A DNA stretch of 63,988 nt, counting the filler, from Rozella allomycis CSF55 (lineage: Eukaryota): the NCBI GenBank assembly GCA_000442015.1. It is 18 parts of 18 records of this genome, joined end to end, with 100 filler letters (N's around TTAATTAATTAA, not from the genome) between each part and the next. Parts side by side here need not be neighbours in the genome. Positions count along the whole stretch, not along the records: positions 36,122 to 40,290 come from KE561232.1; 17 more parts are not named here. One strand, given 5' to 3'. Position numbers and translations under genes: made by a program. The notes under the pieces are model-generated. The model was not told where the DNA came from, did no database searches, and saw nothing but the letters and a program-made list of their open reading frames with translations. Positions 27,642 through 62,782 of the stretch are shown piece by piece. How positions within the stretch are numbered: the first letter of the stretch is position 1; each line of letters opens with the position of its first letter.

Positions 27642-29154
27642 ATGAAAGAGCTGATTGACTTGAAGCGCAGAATGACAACAATGAAAAGAAGCAAAGCGTA
27701 TACCATAACAGATGTTGAAACCATTACAACCGAAATCAAAAATCTAACTATAACCAATCTATCAAACAAGCAAGAAGAGCTCATGGCTGATTGTCTAGCG
27801 CTGCTATCTCATTTACAAGAGCCATTCAACCATGTAAACGAAAATTTATATTCGCCCTATGTCAAGCTGTGTCGTGTGAGGGCCACCTTGTATTCATTCC
27901 AGAAAACCGGCATGTTTACGCTAGATGATGTTACTAGAATCCAAAAAACGCTGCATGTAATTGAAAATACATTTGTTGTTGATGGCAAATTCCAAGTGCC
28001 TGGGTCTAATGAAGTGCTGGCTGGGCAGGCGGTTATATTTGCAACTATGAATGCGTGTTATAAGATTGCGCATCGTTTGCTGATTGCACTAGAGACTATC
28101 GAGGGGGAGATGCTGCCCGTGTATGAATCTTTGGTGACATATAAGCGCGAAATGATGGCGATGAAGCAAGGTGGGGAAATTGAGCAGAAGAGGTTGAGAG
28201 AGATACATGCTGAGCTGCATCAAATTAGCAAGACAAAGATTATGACGATATTTAATCAGGCGGATGATGAAAATGAGAATTTTGTGGCCAGAAATATTCT
28301 GATAACGATGTTGGAAGAAGCATATGATTTATTGTATGATTTGAAAGAGGATGAGATTGATTCTAATTTGCAGCGTGTTGTTATTGATCGATTATATGAT
28401 ATTGAAAAGAGGCTGATTGAAATGGACGATAGCAGATGGTCGCTGGATACTGCAACTGATCTAGTACCGATTCAAAAAGAGTTGCTGGAAATAGAAGCTT
28501 TGAAAAAGGATGGAAAGTTTATGGTTAATGGGGCTTTTGTGGTTAAAGGACAGAGAGAAGCTCATCAATGGTTGAACAGGTGCTACAGGTAGATTTTTAG
28601 AATTGATAGTTTAGATTATTTAATAGTCTATTAGCGTGTACAGAAACAGTTGATCCTTCACTGTCGTATGTCCATCAGAATCTATTAACTCTGAGAAGAA
28701 GTTTGATGGAATTTAGAAGAATAAGTATTGACACTGATGGAACATTTGAGACAAACAAAATCACTGCTTCAGATTTAATGCACTGGAGATTAAGATTGTC
28801 TTCTATTTATGGTCTTTTAATAGATGGAAAGTTTTACAATTCAAAGAATCAAGCGCCAGCAGGCCAGNTAGTATTGACACTGATGGAACGTTTGAGACAA
28901 ACAAAATCACTGCATCAGATTTAATGCACTGGAGATTAAGATTATCTTCTATTTATGGTCTTTTAATAGATGGAAAGTTTTATAATTCAAAAAATCAAGC
29001 GCCTGCAGGCCAAAGTATCTTGGCTGCTTTGTTGCATCAATGCAACGACATACTTCAGGAATTATTTGCTCATGTGGATGAAGATGATGCTTTTGAAGAT
29101 AACGAAGAAGAAGCGTATTATGAAGGGTTACCTGTTTTGTCTTTTCGAAATTGA
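27642..29154 (+). CDS. UPF0662/DUF2408 (Cub1/YPL260W-like) repeat protein
   Basis: Three repeats of DGKF.......GQ..L...L..C; intron near 28589-28614; haplotype duplication at N 28868. Confidence 0.7.
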
Positions 29155-35544: not shown

Positions 35545-36121
35545 GCATCACGTGCCACATGTCCACTCCACTCCCCCGAAATTGCGTGTTTTCATTTTGT
35601 ACAAATGTTTTTTAAGTTATAAAAGCGCGTGATTTTTCACTTTGCAAACTTTCAAACCTACTATTTTCAAACGACACGATGATTAACATTTCAATAAACT
35701 TTAATCTTTACAAATTTTCCATTTTATACCAGTTTTCCATTCCTCTTCAGTGCTTCACTACTTTATACTTGGAAAAGTCAAAAATGGGAAATTCCCTTTC
35801 ATATCAAGATATCCAATTACTGCTCTCGCCATACGAAATAATCAATGACAAGATGTCGCCAGCGCACATTACCAAAACGTACTCTTTAAATCTACACAAG
35901 AAAGGAAAGCCCGAGGCCGACTAACAAAATCGTTTTGCATGTCGAATGACAAGCTTGTTAAAATATTCATGAAACCGTCCAAGAGCAGTATAGATGTATC
36001 AGAGATTCTGGCGAAATACAANNNNNNNNNNNNNNNNNNNNNNNNNNNNNNNNNNNNNNNNNNNNTTAATTAATTAANNNNNNNNNNNNNNNNNNNNNNN
36101 NNNNNNNNNNNNNNNNNNNNN

Positions 36122-38972
36122 TTAGTTTATTTCCTTGTTGCTGTAATGAAAGTTGTAATCTAATCTACATACAAGATTGACTATAAACAATAAACAAATA
36201 AAATTACTCATGTGATGTTCATAATCAGCCGCCGCAAAATAATTTAAAGATTCAACCAACTTTTTAGCTTCCAATGTAAAATTCTGATCTAATTGCGATA
36301 ACTGTAGATTGAATTCATTTAGATTGATTTGATTGCTTGTCATTTGAAAAACAGAGCTACAAAACAAATGACACAAATTAATCATCTTTTCAAATATCAA
36401 TAATAACTTTTCATTTGATAGCATGCATTCTTTTAAACAAGTATCTAAAAAGTCTGAATGAATTTTTAATATTTCATCAACTAGTTTAGCTGATTCTAAT
36501 TTATTTATAAAATAGTTCCAATTTGGTTCAATCACTTCAAAATATGAATAGTATTGAATGTTTTCTATAAAATTTAACATTTTCTGTCTAATTGAATCTC
36601 CAAGTGGAATTGAATATGGTTTCAACTCTGAAAATGTTTCACTCAACAATCTTTCAATGTGTTTACAATTAAATAAATGTCTGAATATTATTTGATATTT
36701 TGTTAACACTTTCTTTGATACAATCAACGACACTGGAAACTCTACTTGGTAATCCAAAATAAATGATTCAAAGCCATTCAATTCATTTCTCATTCTCTCA
36801 ATCATCCCATTCTCATTCACACTAATAATTCTCTTCAATTGCTCATAAAGACTCATTATAGAAAAATCACATTTAACACACTCATGATTCTCATTAAACG
36901 CACTCGTCCCACTCTTCAAACTCAACTCCAACAACGACTGCAATTTAGTCATCGACATTTCTCTATTCTTCTTGGCCAACTCATCACTAGATATATCCAT
37001 AAAATGAGTCAGAAAATCACCTCGCTCCAACAAAAAGAATTGCTTCAATGATAAAATATGACTCTTCAATTTCTTTTCTTTTAAAAAATTCACCAAAGAT
37101 TCATTCGCTTCAATATTCATTTCTGAAATTTTATTTCTATTTTTAGATTCCAATTTGTGAAATTTACTTGTTGAAATCTTGAAATTTCATCTTTTTAAAA
37201 TTCTTCTTAAATTCCTTCATCACATTCACACACTTGCCACCCTGCAATATTTCTTTTTGATATTTCTCTAAAAACGTCGGTGTTCTATCATTCACAAACA
37301 CAAATCTACTAGTCCAAAACCCATCATTAAAATCTTCCTTCAAATCCTCCTTTGAATACTCTGGCTGCTCCTTTATCATAAACTCTTCATACGGATCTCT
37401 AATCTCCCCCTTGCTCATCCACACNTTTTAAATCTTCCTTTGAATACTCTGGCTGCTCCTTGATCATAAACTCTTCATACGGATCTCTAATCTCCCCCTT
37501 GCTCATCCACACAAATATCATCTCATAATACGGCTCACTCGTCACCCTCAGTATATTACAATACATCTCTTTAATCTTCTCATCCCCAGAATAACAAATA
37601 TACGTATCATATATCAACGACAACAGTGATCCTCCCTTGCAATTACTCTTCTCTATAGACATCGCCAACGAATAGATCCCCTTCATCTTACTCTGCATCG
37701 GCTGCACATAAAACCAAAATCTTTGCAACGTCAACTCATTCCTATTAAATTGATACTCCAGCTGAGCTATCAACGTCAAATAATCCTTTCCACTCCATAA
37801 AACACCCTTACTTGCAGAATCTCTTTCACACAATGACAAAACGCATGCTGAACAAACCCATACTCAAACTTGGCANATCTATCAAACACCCTTACTTGCA
37901 GAATCTCTCTCACACAATGACAAAACGCATGCTGAACAAACCCATACTCAAACTTGGCATGCTCATCACAGAATCTCTTTAAAAATAAATACCACTCACA
38001 CATACACAACATCCTTTCAACCATCTGAAACAACGTTCCATCCAACCCATTGTCAACCTCAAACACTATCCCTTCCCCCTCCCGCTTGAACTTTACATAG
38101 TTCCCTTCAATTCCAATCAACACATACAACAAATCTTCCATTATCAAATACTCTTGAACAACAAACGAATGTCTAGCCAAACTCTCGTCATTCTCTATCA
38201 CACTCTCCTCACTGCTCAGAAACGTCATCGAATTAGAAAATCTGATCGTCGCCTCTGTCCTCTTCGTCTTACCAGTCATCGTTTCTCTTAACCCACACAC
38301 ACATTTCCTTACCTGCTCCAATTCCATTCGCAAGGCCATCCCTTCCATTCGGCGTCTTGGGCGCCAGAGAACTCTTCATACTCATCAACTGCGCAGCAAT
38401 CTATCCACACACCATCATCCCCTTACCTTGGCAGCCCTCTGCTCCTTGACCAAATCACCCTCACTCTTCACNCATACTCATCAACTGTGCAGCAATCTAT
38501 CCACACCCCACCAAACGTTTACCTTGGCAGCCCTCTGCTCCTTGACCAAATCACCCTCACTCTTCACAAACTCACTCTTCACACCCTCAACCTCCGCCGC
38601 CTCCCGCACCCTTAACAGTCTCCTCAACCCCTCATCCTCCCGCATCTTCTTCATCAATATCAACAACGCATCAACCTCCTTGATCCTACATCACACCACC
38701 CATCAACCCATACTGCTGCCCCTTCAGTCGCTCATATTTCCCCAAAAATTCATCACTGTTCGGACACTTTTTAGAAAGCTCCTGCGCTATCGTAAACGAC
38801 GTCACCTGTGTGAATAACTTTCAGAGCTTACTTTGTTGATTTGGAATGACTGCGGGCGAGATAGTCGATCAACACATTCGCTGGCATTTTTAGGCGGTAT
38901 TGAGAGGTCGGAAAATAACTGAGATACTAGATGTGGAATCGTAAAGGAACTCATGTGGCTTGGATCTGGCAT
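36122..38972 (-). CDS. TUBGCP2: Gamma-tubulin complex component 2 (GCP2/Spc97), multi-exon
   Basis: MSSFTIPHLVSQL..EFLGKYERLK, QEYLIMEDLLYVLIGIEG, LTLQRFWFYVQP, IRDPYEEFMI, LKQFFLLERGDFL, RLDYN; three single-N haplotype duplications. Confidence 0.93.
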
Positions 38973-39627
38973 TGCGACTAGTGGAGAGTAGATATAGTTT
39001 TATTGAATATGCAATAAGGTATTAAGTAGTAGTATCATGATAAAATATCATGAGTTGCACTAGTTGATATTGGATAGTTCAAGCATTTTCAACATTTAAT
39101 GTATCATTTGCGAAATTTCTAACATTGAAAGGACAATGCAAACCTTAATTACGATCTGATGAAGACTTATAAGATGATCTCCAAAGCATATTCTGTGCAT
39201 ATAANGTAGACATAGTTTTATTGAATGCAATTAAAAGTATTAAGTAGTAGTATCATGATAAAATATCATGAGTAGCACTAGTTGATATTGGATAGTTCAA
39301 GCAGGTTTTAACATTTAATTGATCATTTGCGAAATTTCTAACATTGGTAAACCTTAATTACGGTCTGATGAAGACTTATAAGATGATCTCCAAAGCATAT
39401 TCTGTGCATATAAGAAGAGCTTCATGGAAGCTGAACCCAGGTTGTGCCGTTTAGTTATCCTTTAACCCAATTTAAACAATATTGCCCAATATATGCTTTA
39501 GTAATAGCGATATAGTTAAATGCCATTGAAGTTTTGCTAAATGCTAATCAAATGAAATTTGATGATTACAAGTTACAACATGAACAAGGGGGTTAAAAAT
39601 ACCCAAGGCCCTCAAGAGTGAAATTGA

Positions 39628-40290
39628 CCAAGATAATCAATGAAAGAAGAAAGTGCATGAGCATAAACAGGCACAATGGGAGAGCTTCAAGAAGTTTTTG
39701 AAATTCTTGAGATGCAAAATGTGGATATCCAGAAACGAAACGGGCGCATGTCATGAAACAAGATCGTGTTTCGGGATAAAGATGTACGTCAAGACGCTCA
39801 ATAATATGGTGGAGAATCTTTGCGCAATTTGCCTGTTTATGTTGATGGACTTTCTTCATTTTGTTATTATCTTGGCGAAAAACATTTGACATTTCTTCGT
39901 ATCTACTATTGGCGGCTTTAACATCTTCAAAGCAATGAAATGCCTCTTAAATTTCATTTGATTAGCTAACCTTTTAACATTTCAATAAACTAAAAAGAAT
40001 TGTTCATTTATTTATTGAGAAGCACGGTCAATGGGATCGATCTTTTTCTTTTACTATTCTCGATTTTAATATCATGTTTTCATTTTTCAATGACGCAACT
40101 AAATGCAAACAATGATGTTACAATACCTAAAGATGACGCTGCCTTGCCAACATCGGCAAAACATTTCATGAGACAAGGTCGTGTTTCGGGGTGCAGATGC
40201 ACGTCAAGACGCTCAATAAGATGGTGGAGAATCTTTGCGCAATTTGTCTGTTGTTGTTGATGGACTTTCTTCGTTTTTTTATTTTCTTGT
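39628..40290. repeat. Imperfect inverted repeat (39628-39680 / 39823-39875) plus a diverged direct copy (39751-39875 vs 40166-40290)
   Basis: Arms match at 42/53 nt; each copy encodes KKVH(E/Q)xxQ on its own strand. Confidence 0.8.
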
Positions 40291-40390
40291 NNNNNNNNNN
40301 NNNNNNNNNNNNNNNNNNNNNNNNNNNNNNNNNNTTAATTAATTAANNNNNNNNNNNNNNNNNNNNNNNNNNNNNNNNNNNNNNNNNNNN

Positions 40391-42246
40391 CTCCATGGGA
40401 ACGAAACCTTCTAGCATCTTCCTCTAACTCTCCCTCCTCTAAGAACGCGACATTCTTTCTTGGAATAAACTTCATTAATCTGGACACATGATATTCACTT
40501 TCCTTCCCAAATTCATTTATCACTAAATAAACATTCTTCTCTAATTTCTTTATTATCCTATACGGGCCATCATATCTTGGTTTCTTCTTATCCCAAATAT
40601 GCCCTTTTCTAATCTTAGAATTTAGCACTAAAACGAACGATCCAACTTCAAACTGGGGTACAATTGAGGACGATCTCGACTCTCTGTTACTCTTAAATCT
40701 AATTCCATTAACATTTTCAATTTCTGCTTTTCTTAATTCAACATTTCCTTCAAGTATTTCATCATCCTTATTAATTATAGGTAATCTTGCTTCAACTCCA
40801 AATAACAAATAATGGGGCGATTTTCCTGTTCTGCTATGTACTCTAGCACGATAACCTTGCAAAATACTCAATAAATTCTCATCCCATCTTTCAAATTTCT
40901 TACTTTCTACACTCTTAGTAATTCCATATCGACAAGTTCTGTTCCAACCTTCAACAAAACCTACCCATTCTGGTTGATATGCTGGAATAAATTCAACTTT
41001 AATTCCCATTTTCTCACATGTTTCCCGAAAGTACGAACTAGTAAATCCTTTATCACAATCCGATATTATCTTCCCAGGAACTCCAAATAAAGAACATAAT
41101 TCTTTTAAGCAAGTTATAGCTGTTATAGCCGTCGTATCACTAACTGCCTTAGCAAAAGGGTAACCAGATAAAACTTCAACAAAGTTCAAAACATAACGAT
41201 TTCCATTTTCACTCACCGGAAAGGGACCCAAATAATCGAACTGCCAAACATGAAATAATCCTGAGATAGATGATCTTCCGTCGAACGAATACTGGGGCTT
41301 CACCATCAAAAATTTTTGACATTGCAAGCATGAAAAGACGAATTGCTTCACTTCAGAATATAGATGAGGACGCCAACACCTCACTTTAATCCAACTCCAA
41401 ATCGTTTGAAAAGAGAAGTGACCCAAATTATCATGCAAGTTTCTCAGCAATAATTCTAATTCTTCCTTGTTCATCAAAACTCTCAAAAGGACCTTAGATT
41501 TTCTATATAATAAACCTTCAATTAATACAAATCTCTTAATATTTCTTCTAAATTTTCTTGACAAACCAACATGCGAGTTACACTCTCCCCCCTCTAAAAA
41601 CTTCTTGTACTCAACCAACATATTCCCCCCAATAAATTCATCATTTATTGCTTCTCCTACCAACACTTCTTCGATGTCATTTCTTCTCACAGGGCGCGAC
41701 AAGAAATCAGCAACAACGTTCAATTTTCCAGCTCTATGCTTTATTTCACAATCAAATTCTGATAATAAATTGATCCATCTAATAACTCTTCCACTTGGTT
41801 CCTTCATTCGAAATAAAGCTGAAATCGCCGAATTATCAGTAAACACTGTAAAATGTCTTCCAAGAAGATAACAACGAAAATGTTTAATTGACGCAATCAC
41901 AGCCAAACCTTCTCTCTCGAAGTTAGCATAATTTCTCTCAGCGGAAGTCAACCTTCTTGAATAATATGCGACGGGTCTCAACACTCCTTCTTGATCCATC
42001 TGCTCAAGAACTGATCCCAGGGCAACTCCCGAAGCATCAGTTGACAATACAAACTCTCCAGAATCATCAGGCTGTTTCAGAATCGGCGCAGTCGTCAATA
42101 AATTCTTAATTTCTTCAAAAGCACTTTCACAATCTTTAGTCCAAATAAATTCAATTCCATCTTTTAACAATAATTGCAAGGGCTCAACGACGTCAGTAAA
42201 ATGAGAAATAAATCTTCTAAAATACGAACCCAAACAAACAAAAGAT
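40391..42246 (-). mobile_element. Ty3/Gypsy LTR retrotransposon pol fragment (RT end, RNase H, integrase), open frame
   Basis: YFRRFI, STDAS..LGSVLEQ..PVAYYSRRL..ERNY..ERE, TDN, NVVADFLSR; HHCC LHDNLGH..CLQCQ; FDYLGPFP, SD, VEGWN; GPY module. Confidence 0.96.
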
Positions 42247-58489: not shown

Positions 58490-60964
58490 ATGGAGAGTCT
58501 TTATTGGGTATTAGACGACTACAACGGTGAATCTTCAAATACTCTGAATATTTTTAAGGAGCAAATAGTTTTGGTTTACCAAAAGGAAGAGACAGGCTGG
58601 TGGTATGGATACGTGAATGGTGAAGAAGGATGGATTCCAATGAATTATTTAGAAGAAATTAAACGTTTAAGGTACGGATATATATTTAAAAGAAATTAAG
58701 ACACATCGACGAATACAATTCATGGAAGAATATTTTGGAGTCCTACTGTACGATCATAGAGCAAGTGAAGCAAAACTCAGTTCAAAATAACGCATTTTAT
58801 GTTTTACACGACATTTGCTGCTTCACAGCGGCATCAAACAACAAGGAAAAGTTCTTTGAATTACTTGATACTGTCAACAGCATTATTAGGGATTACAAAA
58901 ACGGTGTAAACAATGAAAGAGCATTAGAATTACTAATACTTGCCTCAAATTTGAACTTTATAANAATTTTTTACACGACATTTGCTGTTTCACAGCGGCA
59001 TCAAGCAACAAGGAAAAGTTCTTTGAATTACTTGATACTGTCAACAAAATGAAATTTCTTTTTTCGACTAACCTTTCTTTTGTCTATAACAGTGCATCCC
59101 GAGCATACCAAGCTCGTTTTCTTGCTTCTTTTTTACAATCATTATGGGGGAAACCTTCTGAAGAGGCTGCTGTGACTTCACAGTGGACCTTTAGAAGGTC
59201 TAACCGTTCACACCGTGGGTTTATCCCAGTTCACAANACATGGAAGAAAATACTCCGTAGATTCGATTATCACACAGGACGTCAAATTCCAAAAGGCCAA
59301 AAAGTTTTTTGGTGAAAACCTGGATACAGTGCTCGAAGGTAAGTATGATGATGTATCCAATGAATACTGGTACCTTGAAACAGAAAACAACATTCAATGT
59401 ATCGAGTATTCTGCAGACGGATCAGTCAAAGCGGCCACTTTGGATTCGGCAATAATATATTTGACGACAACAGGTAAAATTATATGCACATATAAAATAG
59501 ATGATCCGAATTTCCGCGAGGCGTTCTTCACTACACTTTTGCAGTTTACGACTTCAAAGCTGATTATAGATTTAATGAAGCAAAGATTTTTCATAAATAC
59601 AGCGTTTCCATTGGACCAAAACGATGAAACCGTGTGGAAAACGACGTATTTGTATCCTATTAGGTTACGTATTCTGCAATGCCTAAAGTCATGGATAAGA
59701 CTAACGTTTCGGGCATCCGAAGACAGCGATTTGCTAGACGGTCTTAAAGATATACTTTCCAGTGAAGATGTATGCTTAAAGGGGAGAAATATGCTATGTA
59801 CCATAAACGAAATGATTCAAAATTCTCTCAGCGCCCATTCAAACCCCGTATCAATTCCCGACCAACCGTTTCCCTACCCTCTCGAAATGAGTCCTACCCT
59901 CATTCTATCCAATCACAAAGTAGCATCCCAGCANATTACGTATTCTGCAATGCCTAAAGTCATGGATGAGACTAACGTTTCGTGCTTCCGAAGACAGTGA
60001 ATTGCTAGACGGTCTTAAAGATATACTTTCCAGTGACGAGGTATGCTTAAAGGGGAGAAATATGCTATGTACCATAAACGAAATGATCCAAAATTCTCTC
60101 AACGCCCATTCAAACCCCATATCAATTCCCGACCAACCGTTCCCCTACCCACTTGAAATGAGTCCTACCCTCATTCTATCCAATCACAAAGTAGCATCCC
60201 AGCAGCTATGTCTTATCCAATTCGATCTCTTCAAATCCCTGCCCAAATCCTCGCTCGGTTTCCTGAAATGGTCCAACAAGGACACCAACCCCGCTTCCCT
60301 AAACTCAATCGACACTTTCTTTGAATCAGTAACCATAATCCATAACCTCAATTAGATTAGCAAATGGACAATCCACTCGATCCTGCGCCAAAAGAGCGCC
60401 AAACAGCGCAGCAATACGCTCAAGCAGTTCATCCGCCTAGCCTCCGAATCCCTCCGGATCCGCGACTACAGCTCGTTCATCGCCATCTGCTCGGCTCTCA
60501 AATCGTCGTACATTTCTAAACTCTCTGAAAGCTGGCAGCTAGCCGGTCTGAAATACCGACTCAAGATTGAAGACATGTCGCAGTACCTCGACCCATCGCG
60601 TAATTTCGGCAAGTATAGGGAGCTGCTGAGATCATCGCCGGCGCCGGCTGTGCCGTTTATGGGAGTGCATGTGCGCGATGTGATGTCGATACAGGCGAGC
60701 TACCCGACGCATACTGAGAAGATGTATGTGAATTTTGAAAAGTTTGGCAGGATGCATAGGATTATTGAGAGCGTGATGACGTTTCGGGATGTGGATTACA
60801 AGTATAGGAGGAATGAGGTGTATGATGTATTGTGCTGTTTGATTAAAAGTGCGGGTGATGTTGTTGAAGATGAGTTGAGTGGGATGATGGGCGAAGAGAG
60901 AGTGTCTGGTGTGAATAGTACCGAGACTATTCACAAAGCTCTTCAAGACTCTGGTTTTCTGTAG
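58490..60964 (+). CDS. SH3 + REM + CDC25 Ras guanine-nucleotide exchange factor
   Basis: SH3 GWWYG..EGWIPMNY; REM VKAATLD..FFTTLLQFTT..RLRILQCLKSW; GEF DPSRNFGKYRELL..PAVPFMGV..YVNFEK; haplotype duplications at N junctions. Confidence 0.92.
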
Positions 60965-61989: not shown

Positions 61990-62782
61990 GCCTTGACAAT
62001 GTGCTCCACCAAGCCACCCAAAAAGATAGAAAATGTTTTTCATACTTTTCGCTTTCCTCCTTTTGCAAATCCTGTGTACTCCCAACAGCGAGCATACCAT
62101 AAACAACGCTTTAATATCATCAATATTTACAAACTATGGTAAGATATCTGGTGTGAATTTACAGAAAATGTGTTATCGCCACAGCGAATGTTGGTTCAAA
62201 AAGAGTCTCTGAAAAATTTGCAGAGTGATCTGAATTTCAAGTCGATTAGAGGCCATGTGTCGAGTATAGTGATGGTATCGCGTGTTGTGCAAACGGAGAT
62301 TGGATTGAAGCAGCTGTTGGATAAGATGGATGCGATGTGGAGTATAGGAAGTTCCAAGCTGACGATAAGTGTGCTTAATCTTGAGAATAGTAAATGGTTG
62401 ATGAGTGTGAGACACTAGTTGCGGATGCTATGAAAAATCATTATTATTATGGAGATGTTTCTGTCAAGGAAGTGGATGACACGTTTATAGAGTTTTTTGG
62501 GATGACGAGGGACCATTTGAATGATCTGGCGAGTGAGATTGTAGAGGTTAGGACGAGTGCGAGTAGATTGAAGAAGAATATGGTTAGTGTTGTGGAGGAT
62601 TTGGAGAAGAGTTTGTCTGGGAATAAGGAGAAGAGTAGTTTTAAGGGGCTTGTGGATAAAATGAGTGCAATGAGGTTGATGGATAGATGTTTTAAAAAGA
62701 AGCATGAGAGTAGAGATGTGGCTAGAGAGTTTATGGAAAATAATGGTGGGCTGACAATGCGCGAATATAACGAGTTGGCTTT
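61990..62782 (+). CDS. Unidentified multi-exon gene, 3' truncated; upstream part contains stops
   Basis: ORFs 62170-62418 and 62394-62782 can be joined by a 29-nt GT-AG intron; no family recognised. Confidence 0.45.

What the first reader, a model, noticed from the sequence alone, without database searches (positions are those of the whole stretch)
36800..39000. Sharp C-rich to G-rich strand-skew switch inside GCP2 that also reshapes introns (replication-origin-like)
Seen: on the + strand, about 36800-38760 becomes increasingly C/A-rich and almost devoid of G, with GC content rising, then flips to G/T-rich near 38800. The minus-strand gene spans the switch. Its first exon uses C-rich codons and later exons G-rich ones, and even its introns are skewed (gtatgggttgatgggtggtgtgatgtag; gtaaacgtttggtggggtgtggatag), unlike the AT-rich introns elsewhere. 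Known: a fixed bidirectional origin gives C>G to its left and G>C to its right. Inference: a strong, local, strand-asymmetric mutational process at fixed sites (origins or another recurrent nick/repair site), not codon selection.
Basis: partly seen in the sequence, partly recalled or inferred. Interest (0 to 1): 0.7.

Follow-up and report, generated by a model that had tools for sequence, protein, structure and literature searches.

The report
Extreme one-strand G-rich tract in GCP2
A 2-kb stretch inside a Rozella tubulin-complex gene has lost almost all C and gained G on its coding strand, even in introns and silent sites, which looks like a strand-specific mutation footprint tied to the gene rather than a replication origin.

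Summary
On the + strand, 36774-38757 holds C 556 and G 150 (binomial p 1e-55), and GC rises from 0.30 to 0.54. The flip is sharp, at 38751-38808. Three DNA runs from three studies carry the same sequence.

The gene is GCP2/Spc97 of Rozella allomycis, on the minus strand, with ATG at 38972 and the stop at 36122. It has 805 codons and six introns of 26-31 nt. The flip lies in exon 2.

Silent sites and introns carry the skew:
- 4-fold sites of codons 51-600 read G78 C8 A21 T32, against a window background of G .15, C .16.
- Intron interiors read G .49, C .01.

So this is not codon or amino-acid selection. The signature is G+T enrichment of the sense strand, as expected from A>G plus C>T.

The origin reading is not supported. 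The tract is one-sided, sits inside one gene, decays within 2 kb, and its right flank is not a mirror image.

My best reading (about 0.45) is a transcription-linked transition bias on the non-template strand, R-loop-like. It would be an extreme, local form of the known fungal pattern of C-rich 5' ends and G-rich gene bodies.

Similar tracts occur in three other genes of the window. One of them, the RasGEF gene, shows a mirror-image flip that this reading does not explain.

No whole genome and no RNA data were available.

The parts
36122..38972 (-). GCP2/Spc97 (gamma-tubulin complex component 2) gene. ATG at 38972, stop at 36122-36124, 805 codons, 7 exons: 38972-38832, 38805-38714, 38685-38523, 38496-38313, 38284-37896, 37785-37168, 37136-36122. 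Assembly duplicates were removed for this model.
   Evidence: Gene model. Residues 181-805 map at 92-100% to P0001, a Rozella allomycis protein carrying PF17681 and PF04130. The exon 2-3 segment aligns with the N-terminal region of orthologues P0003 and P0010. Exon 1 is inferred only from the ATG, the open frame and a canonical 26-nt intron.
36774..38757 (-). Skew tract. The sense strand is G+T-rich and nearly free of C. Sense-strand G falls from about 45-50% near 38700 to about 25% at 37000. GC falls from 0.54 to 0.30.
   Evidence: + strand counts A542 C556 G150 T545. Codons 51-600 at position 3: G248 C25 A94 T183. At 4-fold sites: G78 C8 A21 T32.
38751..38808 (.). Sharp 5' boundary (change point) of the tract. 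It lies in exon 2, about 215 nt downstream of the ATG and just after intron 1.
   Evidence: best split between 38756 and 38758; sense-strand G/C per 60 nt goes from 10/17 to 17/9 to 25/5.
38699..38722 (-). G-cluster block (GGGG..GGG..GGG) on the sense strand, followed by at least 220 nt with 40% G or more. It is the only locus in the window, on either strand, that fits the R-loop-forming-sequence criteria as I recalled them.
   Evidence: G-run list: 29 runs of G3 or longer against 1 run of C3 or longer in the tract.
38686..38713 (-). Intron 2, 28 nt, G14 C0.
38497..38522 (-). Intron 3, 26 nt, G12 C1. The second haplotype copy at 38402-38427 has a very different interior.
38285..38312 (-). Intron 4, 28 nt, G12 C0.
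37786..37895 (-). Intron 5, 26 nt once the assembly duplicate 37794-37877 is removed, G11 C0.
38806..38831 (-). Intron 1, 26 nt, unskewed (G5 C5). It lies just outside the tract.
37137..37167 (-). Intron 6, 31 nt, AT-rich (G4 C3). It lies in the fading part of the tract.
38800..39800 (+). Right flank, holding exon 1, the presumed 5'UTR and promoter, and upstream DNA. It shows a weak opposite skew (G173 C116) with A>T. It is not a mirror image of the tract.
37339..37426 (.). Assembly artefact: a tandem near-duplicate (second haplotype) joined by a single N. The same applies to 37794-37877, 38377-38472 and 38988-39205.
   Evidence: 3 to 24 differences per pair. table 5: public contigs skip 88, 84, 96 and 209 nt.
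62150..62782 (+). Second tract of the same kind, in a + strand gene for a hypothetical protein (P0121). Exon 1 is C>G. After intron 1 (62139-62164), position 3 is G .42-.44 and C .04-.05. The tract runs to the contig end.
60600..60960 (+). Third tract: the last 120 codons of a RasGEF gene, with position 3 G .44 C .11 A .10 T .35. It ends at the stop codon.
59820..60600 (+). Mirror tract in the same RasGEF gene. The sense strand is C+A-rich (position 3 C .36-.47), GC3 reaches 0.8, and the intron at 60329-60360 is C-rich (G1 C6). It includes the assembly duplicate 59665-59933 / 59936-60204.
27975..28454 (+). Fourth tract, in the 3' half of a DUF2408 gene. Position 3 in 40-codon windows is G 12-22 and C 0-3.

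Best explanation
The tract is the footprint of a strand-specific substitution bias acting on the non-template (sense) strand of the transcribed GCP2 gene. A>G and C>T changes on that strand have accumulated to near saturation.

The geometry is a sharp start about 215 nt after the ATG, at a block of G clusters, and then a gradual fade over about 2 kb. This is what is expected if the sense strand is repeatedly left single-stranded by co-transcriptional RNA:DNA hybrids (R-loops). Such hybrids would begin at the G clusters and end at variable distances downstream.

The process would feed on itself. A G-richer non-template strand gives a more stable hybrid, which exposes the strand more, which adds G and removes C.

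Shown here:
- the composition, its boundaries and its presence in introns and silent sites;
- its effect on the protein;
- its orientation relative to the gene.

Inferred, not shown:
- that the cause is mutational rather than selection on the RNA;
- that transcription drives it;
- that R-loops or single-stranded DNA are the intermediate.

I regard it as an extreme, local form of the known fungal pattern of a C-biased 5' end and a G-biased gene body.
For: 1. The skew acts on non-coding and silent positions.
- 4-fold sites read G78 C8 A21 T32, against background G .15 C .16 A .32 T .38 in 43 other ORFs.
- Interiors of introns 2-5 read G .49 C .01.

2. The signature is a transition asymmetry.
- Position 3 G+T is 0.78 against 0.53 in the background.
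- NNR codons are G-ending 132 times and A-ending 47 times; the background is 770 against 1473.
- NNY codons are C-ending 11 times and T-ending 117 times; the background is 800 against 1679.

3. The gradient differs for the two changes (computed from the table).
- G/(G+A) at position 3 is 0.70-0.94 over codons 51-400, then 0.47-0.83 to codon 600, then at background.
- C/(C+T) stays at 0.05-0.20 out to codon 700.
So C loss is saturated along the gene, while G gain is graded from the 5' boundary.

4. The tract is one-sided and runs in the direction of transcription. The same holds for the P0121 gene, where it starts right after intron 1, and for the DUF2408 gene.

5. The only locus in the 64-kb window that meets the G-cluster plus 40%-G criteria sits at the tract's 5' edge, on the sense strand.

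6. The promoter, 5'UTR and exon 1 are C-rich on the sense strand; for example 38981-39040 holds G2 C15. This matches the fungal pattern of a C-biased 5' end and a G-biased body that also affects 4-fold sites (PMC3315797, abstract, Results and Discussion read).

7. The protein is shifted in the tract only. Residues with obligatory-C codons are 12.7%, against 14.4-25.2% in 22 orthologues. Residues with obligatory-G codons are 34.0%, against 23.9-31.0%. The 3' control region lies within or at the edge of the orthologue range.
Against: 1. The RasGEF gene carries an equally strong tract of opposite polarity. Its sense strand is C+A-rich (position 3 C .36-.47), and the intron there is C-rich. It lies directly upstream of a G+T-rich tract in the same exon. 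Sense transcription alone does not explain this; antisense transcription would have to be assumed.

2. Silent-site skew is not general in this window.
- Only 26 of the 47 untied ORFs (48 examined) have G>C at position 3 (p 0.56).
- Pooled 4-fold skew is -0.04.
- Counting genes with extreme silent-site tracts gives 5 that are sense-G-rich and 2 that are sense-C-rich. That is not significant.

3. Runs with |skew| > 0.35 do track gene direction (13 of the 15 assignable; 17 runs found, 2 unassigned; p 0.007). This count is confounded by the universal G excess at codon position 1.

4. The fungal pattern in the literature has A>T going together with G>C. Here silent sites have T>A.

5. The G-cluster test is partly circular, because it scores G-richness. 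Its criteria were recalled from memory, not read.

6. There are no expression data, and GCP2 is not an obvious highly transcribed gene.
Confidence: 0.45

Rival explanations
1. A fixed bidirectional replication origin or initiation zone lies at about 38800. The parental strand that serves as lagging-strand template on each side accumulates C>T and A>G. The + strand therefore becomes C+A-rich on the left and G+T-rich on the right.
For: The polarity fits. At silent sites the left side has the expected G+T-rich minus strand. The RasGEF flip at about 60600 is two-sided and mirror-symmetric, with GC3 peaking near its centre. That geometry is origin-like and is not explained by sense transcription.
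Against: - At GCP2 the two sides are very unequal: -0.55 over 2 kb against +0.20 over 1 kb.
- The right side has A>T, not T>A.
- The skew fades within 2 kb inside the same gene, whereas a fork would carry it to the next terminus.
- At three of four strong flips (GCP2, P0121, DUF2408) only the side lying downstream in the gene's direction is strongly skewed.
- The flip lies in a coding exon of 45% GC.
- The amplitude is several-fold above the replication skews I recall for eukaryotes (about 0.1). That figure is recalled, not read.
Confidence: 0.08
2. A recombination (double-strand-break) hotspot with GC-biased gene conversion produces a local GC peak. Strand-specific resection and repair synthesis produce a skew that flips at the break site.
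For: There are local GC peaks of 0.5-0.54 in a genome of 34-35% GC, at 38200-38800 and 60100-60800. GC3 decays over about 0.4-2 kb from a centre, which is the scale of resection and conversion tracts. In human hotspots the flanking 2 kb show strong strand-asymmetric mutation (PMC7615360, passages read).
Against: - The polarity is wrong. In human hotspots the forward strand is single-stranded to the left of the break and loses C and A there (PMC7615360, passages in section 4 and the Fig. 1 legend). Here the + strand to the left of the flip is rich in C and A.
- Placing the break at the other edge (about 36770) puts the strongest effect farthest from the break.
- GC-biased conversion by itself is strand-symmetric.
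- The tract is one-sided at GCP2.
Confidence: 0.12
3. Selection acts on the transcript or the DNA rather than mutation. Examples are avoidance of C in the pre-mRNA (the CTP-limitation idea of McLean and Tirosh), selection for an unstructured G/U-rich RNA, or selection for a G-rich element with a regulatory role.
For: Introns belong to the pre-mRNA, so their skew does not exclude selection at the RNA level. The C-avoidance hypothesis is in print for fungal genes (PMC3315797, Discussion read). The organism is an intracellular parasite, so nucleotide supply could plausibly matter; that is my own inference.
Against: - The RasGEF gene has a tract with 36-47% C at position 3 on the sense strand, the opposite of C avoidance.
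- Most genes in the window show no silent-site skew.
- The graded G gain with uniform C loss looks like dose-dependent damage rather than a target composition.
- No RNA family or structure was detected.
Confidence: 0.1
4. An assembly, amplification or contamination artefact.
For: The assembly is fragmented. It carries haplotype duplications at single N's.
Against: - Contigs from three DNA runs in three studies reproduce the tract at 99% or more.
- The tract encodes a conserved GCP2 protein, 98% identical to an independently annotated Rozella protein.
- The artefactual duplicates do not change the composition.
Confidence: 0.01

Closest known systems
Intragenic GC skew of unicellular fungi: C-biased 5' ends, G-biased bodies and 3' ends (McLean and Tirosh 2011, PMC3315797; Fujimori et al. 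2005, PMC555766, seen only in a search listing)
   Same: The sense strand is C-rich at the promoter and start of the coding region, then G-rich. The skew also affects 4-fold sites and extends outside codons. It shifts amino-acid usage. Many genes show it but not all. The RasGEF gene (C-rich for most of its length, G-rich in the last 360 nt up to the stop) fits their 'group four' description.
   Different: - The amplitude here is far larger: skew 0.55-0.76 in windows, and 0.81 at 4-fold sites.
- The change is a step within about 60-100 nt, not a gradient.
- G-richness declines towards the 3' end in GCP2.
- At silent sites G>C goes with T>A (G+T-rich), whereas they report G>C going with A>T.
- Their study did not include this lineage.
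[quoted passage not shown] 2010, PMC2927911; the Green 2003 and Touchon 2003 papers are recalled)
   Same: The polarity and type are the same: the sense strand is enriched in G and T. Introns are affected. There is a promoter-proximal component within the first 1-2 kb.
   Different: As I recall, mammalian skews are a few percent; here the tract is near saturation. The mechanism in mammals is itself debated. No substitution rates could be measured here.
GC-skewed R-loop-forming regions: human CpG-island promoters and gene 3' ends (Ginno et al. 2013, PMC3787257) and immunoglobulin switch regions (PMC4245955). Only search-listing abstracts were seen.
   Same: The non-template strand is G-rich, starting just downstream of the gene start. 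There are G clusters at the upstream edge. The tract is 1-2 kb long, and its end is tied to falling G density. RasGEF has a second tract type at a gene's 3' end.
   Different: No hybrid has been shown here. The genome is AT-rich and has no CpG islands. In the tract, CpG is neither depleted nor enriched (observed/expected 0.93).
Replication-origin skew jumps (bacterial oriC; human skew 'N-domains', recalled)
   Same: The direction of the jump is the same (C>G then G>C on the + strand). The strand that runs 5' to 3' away from the jump is G+T-rich.
   Different: Origin skews are symmetric about the origin and extend over the whole replicon. This one is one-sided, 2 kb long and confined to one gene.

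Membership tests
GCP2/Spc97 gamma-tubulin complex component (identity of the gene) | GCP N-terminal and C-terminal domains (PF17681 and PF04130) and similarity to GCP2 orthologues | tested here: met
   the C-terminal 354 aa hit 1355 proteins at E<=0.001. The 120 best are listed, all carrying PF17681 and PF04130, and many named GCP2/Spc97/Alp4. The best hit, P0001 (Rozella allomycis), is 98% identical. P0001 maps along 38228-36125.
Fungal 5'-C / 3'-G intragenic skew (McLean and Tirosh) | Sense strand C-biased around the start codon and promoter | tested here: met
   sense-strand G/C per 60 nt is 2/15, 9/18, 10/15 and 10/17 from 39040 to 38801; codons 1-50 have skew -0.33 at position 1 and -0.45 at position 2.
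Fungal 5'-C / 3'-G intragenic skew (McLean and Tirosh) | Sense strand G-biased further into the gene, also at 4-fold sites and outside codons | tested here: met
   (4-fold G78 C8). (introns).
Fungal 5'-C / 3'-G intragenic skew (McLean and Tirosh) | Positive AT skew (A>T) accompanying the positive GC skew | tested here: not met
   in codons 51-600, position 3 is A94 T183 and 4-fold sites are A21 T32. T exceeds A.
Fungal 5'-C / 3'-G intragenic skew (McLean and Tirosh) | A pattern seen on average over the genes of the species | tested here: inconclusive
   Only 64 kb were available, because no genome is held. Pooled 4-fold skew of 43 ORFs is -0.04. 26 of the 47 untied ORFs (48 examined) have G>C at position 3. 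Several genes show the C-to-G progression.
Replication-origin skew switch | C>G to the left and G>C to the right on the + strand | tested here: met
   The pattern reads the same on both strands, so a minus-strand gene with a G-rich body gives it too.
Replication-origin skew switch | Comparable skew on both sides, with T>A accompanying G>C | tested here: not met
   the left side holds G150 C556. The right side holds G173 C116 with A269 T225 (G+T fraction 0.51).
Replication-origin skew switch | Skew persists over replicon-scale distance irrespective of genes | tested here: not met
   on the left the skew returns to background at about 36770, inside the same gene. The right side cannot be followed beyond 40290, where the contig ends.
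Replication-origin skew switch | Mapped initiation of DNA synthesis | not testable with these tools
   No nascent-strand or Okazaki-fragment data were available.
R-loop-forming sequence | G-cluster initiation zone followed by 100 nt or more with at least 40% G on the non-template strand (criteria recalled from the QmRLFS model, not read) | tested here: met
   1 locus in the whole window on both strands, at 38722-38699 on the sense strand, with an elongation zone of at least 220 nt (cut short by an N).
R-loop-forming sequence | RNA:DNA hybrid actually formed on transcription | not testable with these tools
   No RNA holder was listed for the stretch. No hybrid-mapping data were available.
Meiotic break hotspot with biased gene conversion | Strand asymmetry with the polarity seen at mapped hotspots (the strand ending 3' at the break loses C and A) | tested here: not met
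   Polarity taken from PMC7615360 (passages read), compared. It is opposite if the break is placed at the flip.

The most novel reading that the evidence does not exclude
Rozella genes carry discrete, sharply bounded tracts of 0.4-2 kb in which one DNA strand has undergone near-saturating A>G and C>T change.

The tracts occur in either polarity and do not coincide with gene ends. They would therefore not be the smooth gene-wide gradient known from yeasts. They would be a sequence 'fossil' of fixed sites where one strand is recurrently single-stranded, through stable R-loops from sense or antisense transcription or through fixed initiation or repair zones.

If so, such sites could be read directly from a genome sequence. 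The process would also be strong enough to reshape protein composition locally.
Probability: 0.3. Interest if true: 0.6.

Novelty: new variant of a known kind. Interest (0 to 1): 0.42.

Why it matters
Strand-compositional skews inside eukaryotic genes are usually a few percent and are only seen in averages over thousands of genes. Here a single gene shows a near-saturated, step-bounded version. At 4-fold sites G outnumbers C about ten to one, introns are almost free of C, and the encoded protein is measurably shifted.

If the tracts mark recurrent single-stranded DNA, for example R-loops, this small, AT-rich, early-diverging fungal parasite would be a natural system for three things:
- separating transcription-linked from replication-linked mutational asymmetry;
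- testing whether skew and R-loops reinforce each other;
- measuring how far mutation pressure can push a conserved protein.

If the tracts instead turn out to be the ordinary fungal 5'-C / 3'-G pattern at high amplitude, the finding is a useful extreme example but not new in kind.

Tried and rejected
- **Whole genome.** None is held for this window.
- **RNA evidence.** No RNA holder was listed for the stretch. The one RNA-labelled run laid (X12) gave no contig on it. This says nothing about expression.
- **Palindrome or hairpin at the flips.** Inverted-repeat search found only weak matches, the longest being 30 nt at 70%. Rejected.
- **RNA genes.** No tRNA and no Rfam family anywhere in the window.
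- **Repeat or transposon upstream of GCP2.** The segment 38990-40290 matches only itself within the window. Its internal repeats are a haplotype duplicate and one local 128-nt repeat.
- **Antisense gene in the tract.** The 219-aa + strand ORF at 38158-38817 is a shadow ORF. The + strand there lacks G, so TAG and TGA cannot occur.
- **N-terminal homology.** phmmer of residues 1-185 against the 122 fetched proteins returned no hit. Only the MAFFT alignment shows a similar segment, in 2 of 22 orthologues. Exon 1 therefore remains a model.
- **SNP polarity.** The allelic differences in the tract are too few and cannot be polarised without an outgroup. One search lists 15 differences, 6 of them G/A and 2 of them T/C on the sense strand. 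No close relative exists in the protein database; the next hit is at 37-43% identity.
- **Automatic intron finder.** The first version chose wrong introns. The model was then set by hand and checked by translation.
- **Contig 1.** It was searched against plasmids with no match.
- **Literature.** Searches for Rozella together with GC skew (6 papers, all on mitochondrial genomes) and for Rozella allomycis with intron, GC content and genome (24 papers, the 12 listed all on mitochondrial or other genomes) found no report of this nuclear skew in the held library.
- **Supplementary files.** They were not consulted.


Full report
**What the window is**

The 63,988-nt window is not one chromosome segment. 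It is 19 contigs of 1.1-19 kb joined by N44-TTAATTAATTAA-N44 linkers. The finding lies in one contig of 4169 nt (36122-40290).

The window also holds 23 single N's. Seventeen of them are flanked by a tandem near-duplicate of 30-269 nt with 0-12% differences. Public contigs skip the four that lie in this contig, jumping 88, 84, 96 and 209 nt (table 5). These duplicates are therefore two haplotypes assembled in tandem, not real repeats.

Proteins encoded in the window are 98-100% identical to named proteins of Rozella allomycis CSF55 (P0001, P0121, P0122). The organism is thus this early-diverging fungal parasite or a very close relative.

**The observation**

It is confirmed in every particular.
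- + strand GC skew is -0.46 to -0.66 in all 400-nt windows from 36600 to 38799. GC rises from 0.30 to 0.50. The skew then flips to +0.23.
- Change-point analysis places the flip between 38756 and 38758 (support 38751-38808) and the other edge at about 36773.
- After removing the duplicates, the tract holds C 556 against G 150 (p 1e-55).
- It is the longest and strongest of the 17 runs with |skew| > 0.35 found among 575 windows of 300 nt.
- Contigs of three DNA runs from three studies carry the same sequence at 99% or more. It is not an artefact.

**The gene**

I built a model on the deduplicated minus strand.
- ATG at 38972, stop at 36122-36124, 805 codons, seven exons.
- Six GT-AG introns of 26, 28, 26, 28, 26 and 31 nt.

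Residues 181-805 are the annotated Rozella GCP2/Spc97 protein (PF17681 and PF04130). The segment encoded by exons 2-3 aligns with the N-terminal region of two of 22 orthologues. This requires a start upstream of exon 2. Exon 1 itself has no detectable similarity and remains a model.

The flip lies 48 nt into exon 2, about 215 nt after the ATG.

**Where the skew sits**

| Class of site | G | C | A | T |
|---|---|---|---|---|
| Codons 1-50, position 3 | 10 | 12 | 15 | 13 |
| Codons 51-600, position 3 | 248 | 25 | 94 | 183 |
| Codons 51-600, 4-fold sites | 78 | 8 | 21 | 32 |
| Background, 4-fold sites of 43 other ORFs (fractions) | .15 | .16 | .32 | .38 |

- Among two-fold codons, G-ending beats A-ending 132 to 47 (background 770 to 1473). 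T-ending beats C-ending 117 to 11 (background 1679 to 800).
- Introns 2-5, inside the tract, have interiors with G .49 and C .01. Introns 1 and 6, at or beyond the edges, are ordinary. So are 34 other candidate introns, with G .17 and C .13.
- Across 40 candidate introns, intron skew follows the flanking silent-site skew (rho 0.46, p 0.003). The candidate set is an automatic, unverified list.
- The protein is shifted as well. In 426 aligned columns of the tract, residues with obligatory-C codons (P, H, Q, T, A) are 12.7%, against 14.4-25.2% in 22 orthologues. Residues with obligatory-G codons are 34.0%, against 23.9-31.0%. The 3' control region is within or at the edge of the range.

The skew is therefore imposed at the nucleotide level and drags the protein along. 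It is not the other way round.

**The signature**

At silent sites the sense strand is enriched in G and T and depleted in A and C (G+T 0.78 against 0.53 in the background). This is the pattern expected from excess A>G and C>T on that strand.

The two components behave differently along the gene (from the table).
- G/(G+A) at position 3 is 0.70-0.94 for codons 51-400, then 0.47-0.83 to codon 600, then at background.
- C/(C+T) stays at 0.05-0.20 to codon 700, against 0.31 in the background and 0.48 in codons 1-50.

C loss looks saturated. G gain is graded from a sharp 5' edge.

**Origin or not**

A C-rich-then-G-rich pattern is its own reverse complement. The polarity therefore cannot distinguish an origin from a minus-strand gene with a G-rich sense strand, or from divergent transcription.

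What does discriminate is shape.
- The left side has skew -0.55 over 2 kb. The right side has +0.20 over 1 kb with A>T, so it is not a mirror image (G173 C116 A269 T225).
- The left side returns to background inside the same gene.
- The flip lies in a 45% GC coding exon.

None of this is expected of a bidirectional origin. I found no inverted repeat, tRNA, Rfam family or shared repeat at the flip.

**Other tracts in the window**

Scanning position 3 in 907 windows of 40 codons and inspecting sequence found the same kind of tract in three more genes.
- The P0121 gene on the + strand. Exon 1 is C>G. Directly after intron 1, position 3 is G .42-.44 and C .04-.05, up to the contig end.
- The 3' half of a DUF2408 gene on the + strand.
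- The last 120 codons of a RasGEF gene on the + strand, ending at the stop codon.

In all of these the G+T-rich strand is the sense strand.

The RasGEF gene also has an upstream tract of the opposite kind in the same exon. There the sense strand is C+A-rich (position 3 C .36-.47, GC3 up to 0.8), and the intron within it is C-rich (G1 C6). The flip is at about 60600. This is the main observation that my preferred explanation does not cover.

Counting genes with extreme silent-site tracts gives 5 sense-G-rich and 2 sense-C-rich. That is not significant.

Of the 17 runs with |skew| > 0.35, 15 could be assigned to a gene, and 13 of those are sense-G-rich (p 0.007). That count is confounded by the general G excess at codon position 1. 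At position 3 only 26 of the 47 untied ORFs (48 examined) have G>C.

**Mechanism**

The best fit is a transcription-linked bias on the non-template strand.
- Fungal genes are known to be C-biased at the 5' end and G-biased further on, also at 4-fold sites (PMC3315797, abstract, Results and Discussion read).
- The step-like start at a block of G clusters and the graded fade over about 2 kb suggest a specific geometry. Single-strandedness of the sense strand would start at a fixed place and end at variable distances, as in R-loops.
- The only locus in the window that meets G-cluster plus 40%-G criteria is at 38722-38699, on the sense strand. The criteria were recalled, and the test is partly circular.
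- A self-reinforcing loop (more G, more stable hybrid, more exposure) would explain why only some genes run away to the extreme. This step is inference.

A break hotspot placed at the flip would have the wrong polarity by analogy with human hotspots (PMC7615360, passages read). Selection for C avoidance is contradicted by the C-rich RasGEF tract.

**Comparison and novelty**

In kind, this is transcription-associated strand asymmetry of the fungal 5'-C / 3'-G type. It differs in four respects:
- amplitude, which is near saturation;
- step-like boundaries that do not coincide with gene ends;
- a G+T signature rather than the reported G+A signature;
- tracts of both polarities.

Two literature searches for Rozella with skew or composition terms returned only mitochondrial or unrelated genome papers. 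I found no report of this in the held library. Supplementary files were not consulted.

I rate it a new variant of a known kind, of moderate interest. Its value depends on a genome-wide count that I could not run.

**Verdict**

The origin interpretation is not supported. The most likely cause is a gene-linked, single-strand-type transition bias (confidence about 0.45), and the RasGEF mirror tract remains unexplained.

Noticed in passing
whole window (linkers at e.g. 36022-36121 and 40291-40390): The window is a chain of 19 unlinked contigs joined by N44-TTAATTAATTAA-N44. Any feature that seems to cross a linker is not real synteny.
   Followed up: yes
single N's, e.g. 5375, 28868, 37425, 50066, 59934: 17 of 23 single N's are flanked by tandem near-duplicates of 30-269 nt with 0-12% differences. 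These look like two haplotypes of a heterozygous genome assembled in series. Public contigs skip the four tested ones.
   Followed up: partly
59820-60960: The RasGEF gene has a mirror-image flip at silent sites at about 60600, within one exon. It goes from C+A-rich (position 3 C up to .47-.60, GC3 up to 0.8) to G+T-rich. The intron in the C-rich part is itself C-rich. Sense-strand transcription bias does not explain this.
   Followed up: partly
62030-62782: A gene for a hypothetical protein (P0121) has a signal-peptide-like, C-rich exon 1. From just after its first intron to the contig end, its body is G-rich and nearly free of C.
   Followed up: partly
40391-42246: This contig is a fragment of a Ty3/Gypsy-type retroelement pol gene (RNase H, integrase zinc finger and core, SH3) on the minus strand. 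It is open over 618 codons. The sense strand is depleted in C (position 3 C .08) but is not G-rich like the GCP2 tract.
   Followed up: partly
38692-38708 (intron 2 of GCP2): One contig of run X1 lacks 17 nt inside the 28-nt intron 2 and has a change at the last base of exon 2. The remaining 11 nt could not be a normal intron. It may be a defective allele or a contig error in a low-complexity G/T stretch.
   Followed up: no
38377-38567: The two haplotype copies around N 38472 are nearly identical in the exons but differ strongly inside intron 3 (7 differences in 95 nt, mostly in the intron). Both intron versions are G-rich and C-poor.
   Followed up: no
1-2554: The first contig has perfect 30-nt terminal inverted repeats containing EcoRV-like and HpaI-like sites. 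Its GC is 0.41, it has no ORF of 130 aa or more, and it has no match among plasmids. It may be an adaptor or cloning artefact, or a small linear element.
   Followed up: partly
38228-38972: The database protein P0001 starts at the Met at 38228. The model here adds about 180 residues upstream (exons 1-4), part of which aligns with GCP2 N-termini of two orthologues. The public annotation of that copy is probably truncated.
   Followed up: partly
39747-39874 and 40162-40289: There is a local 128-nt direct repeat (89% identical) upstream of GCP2, with short minus-strand ORFs of similar sequence. No family match was sought.
   Followed up: no
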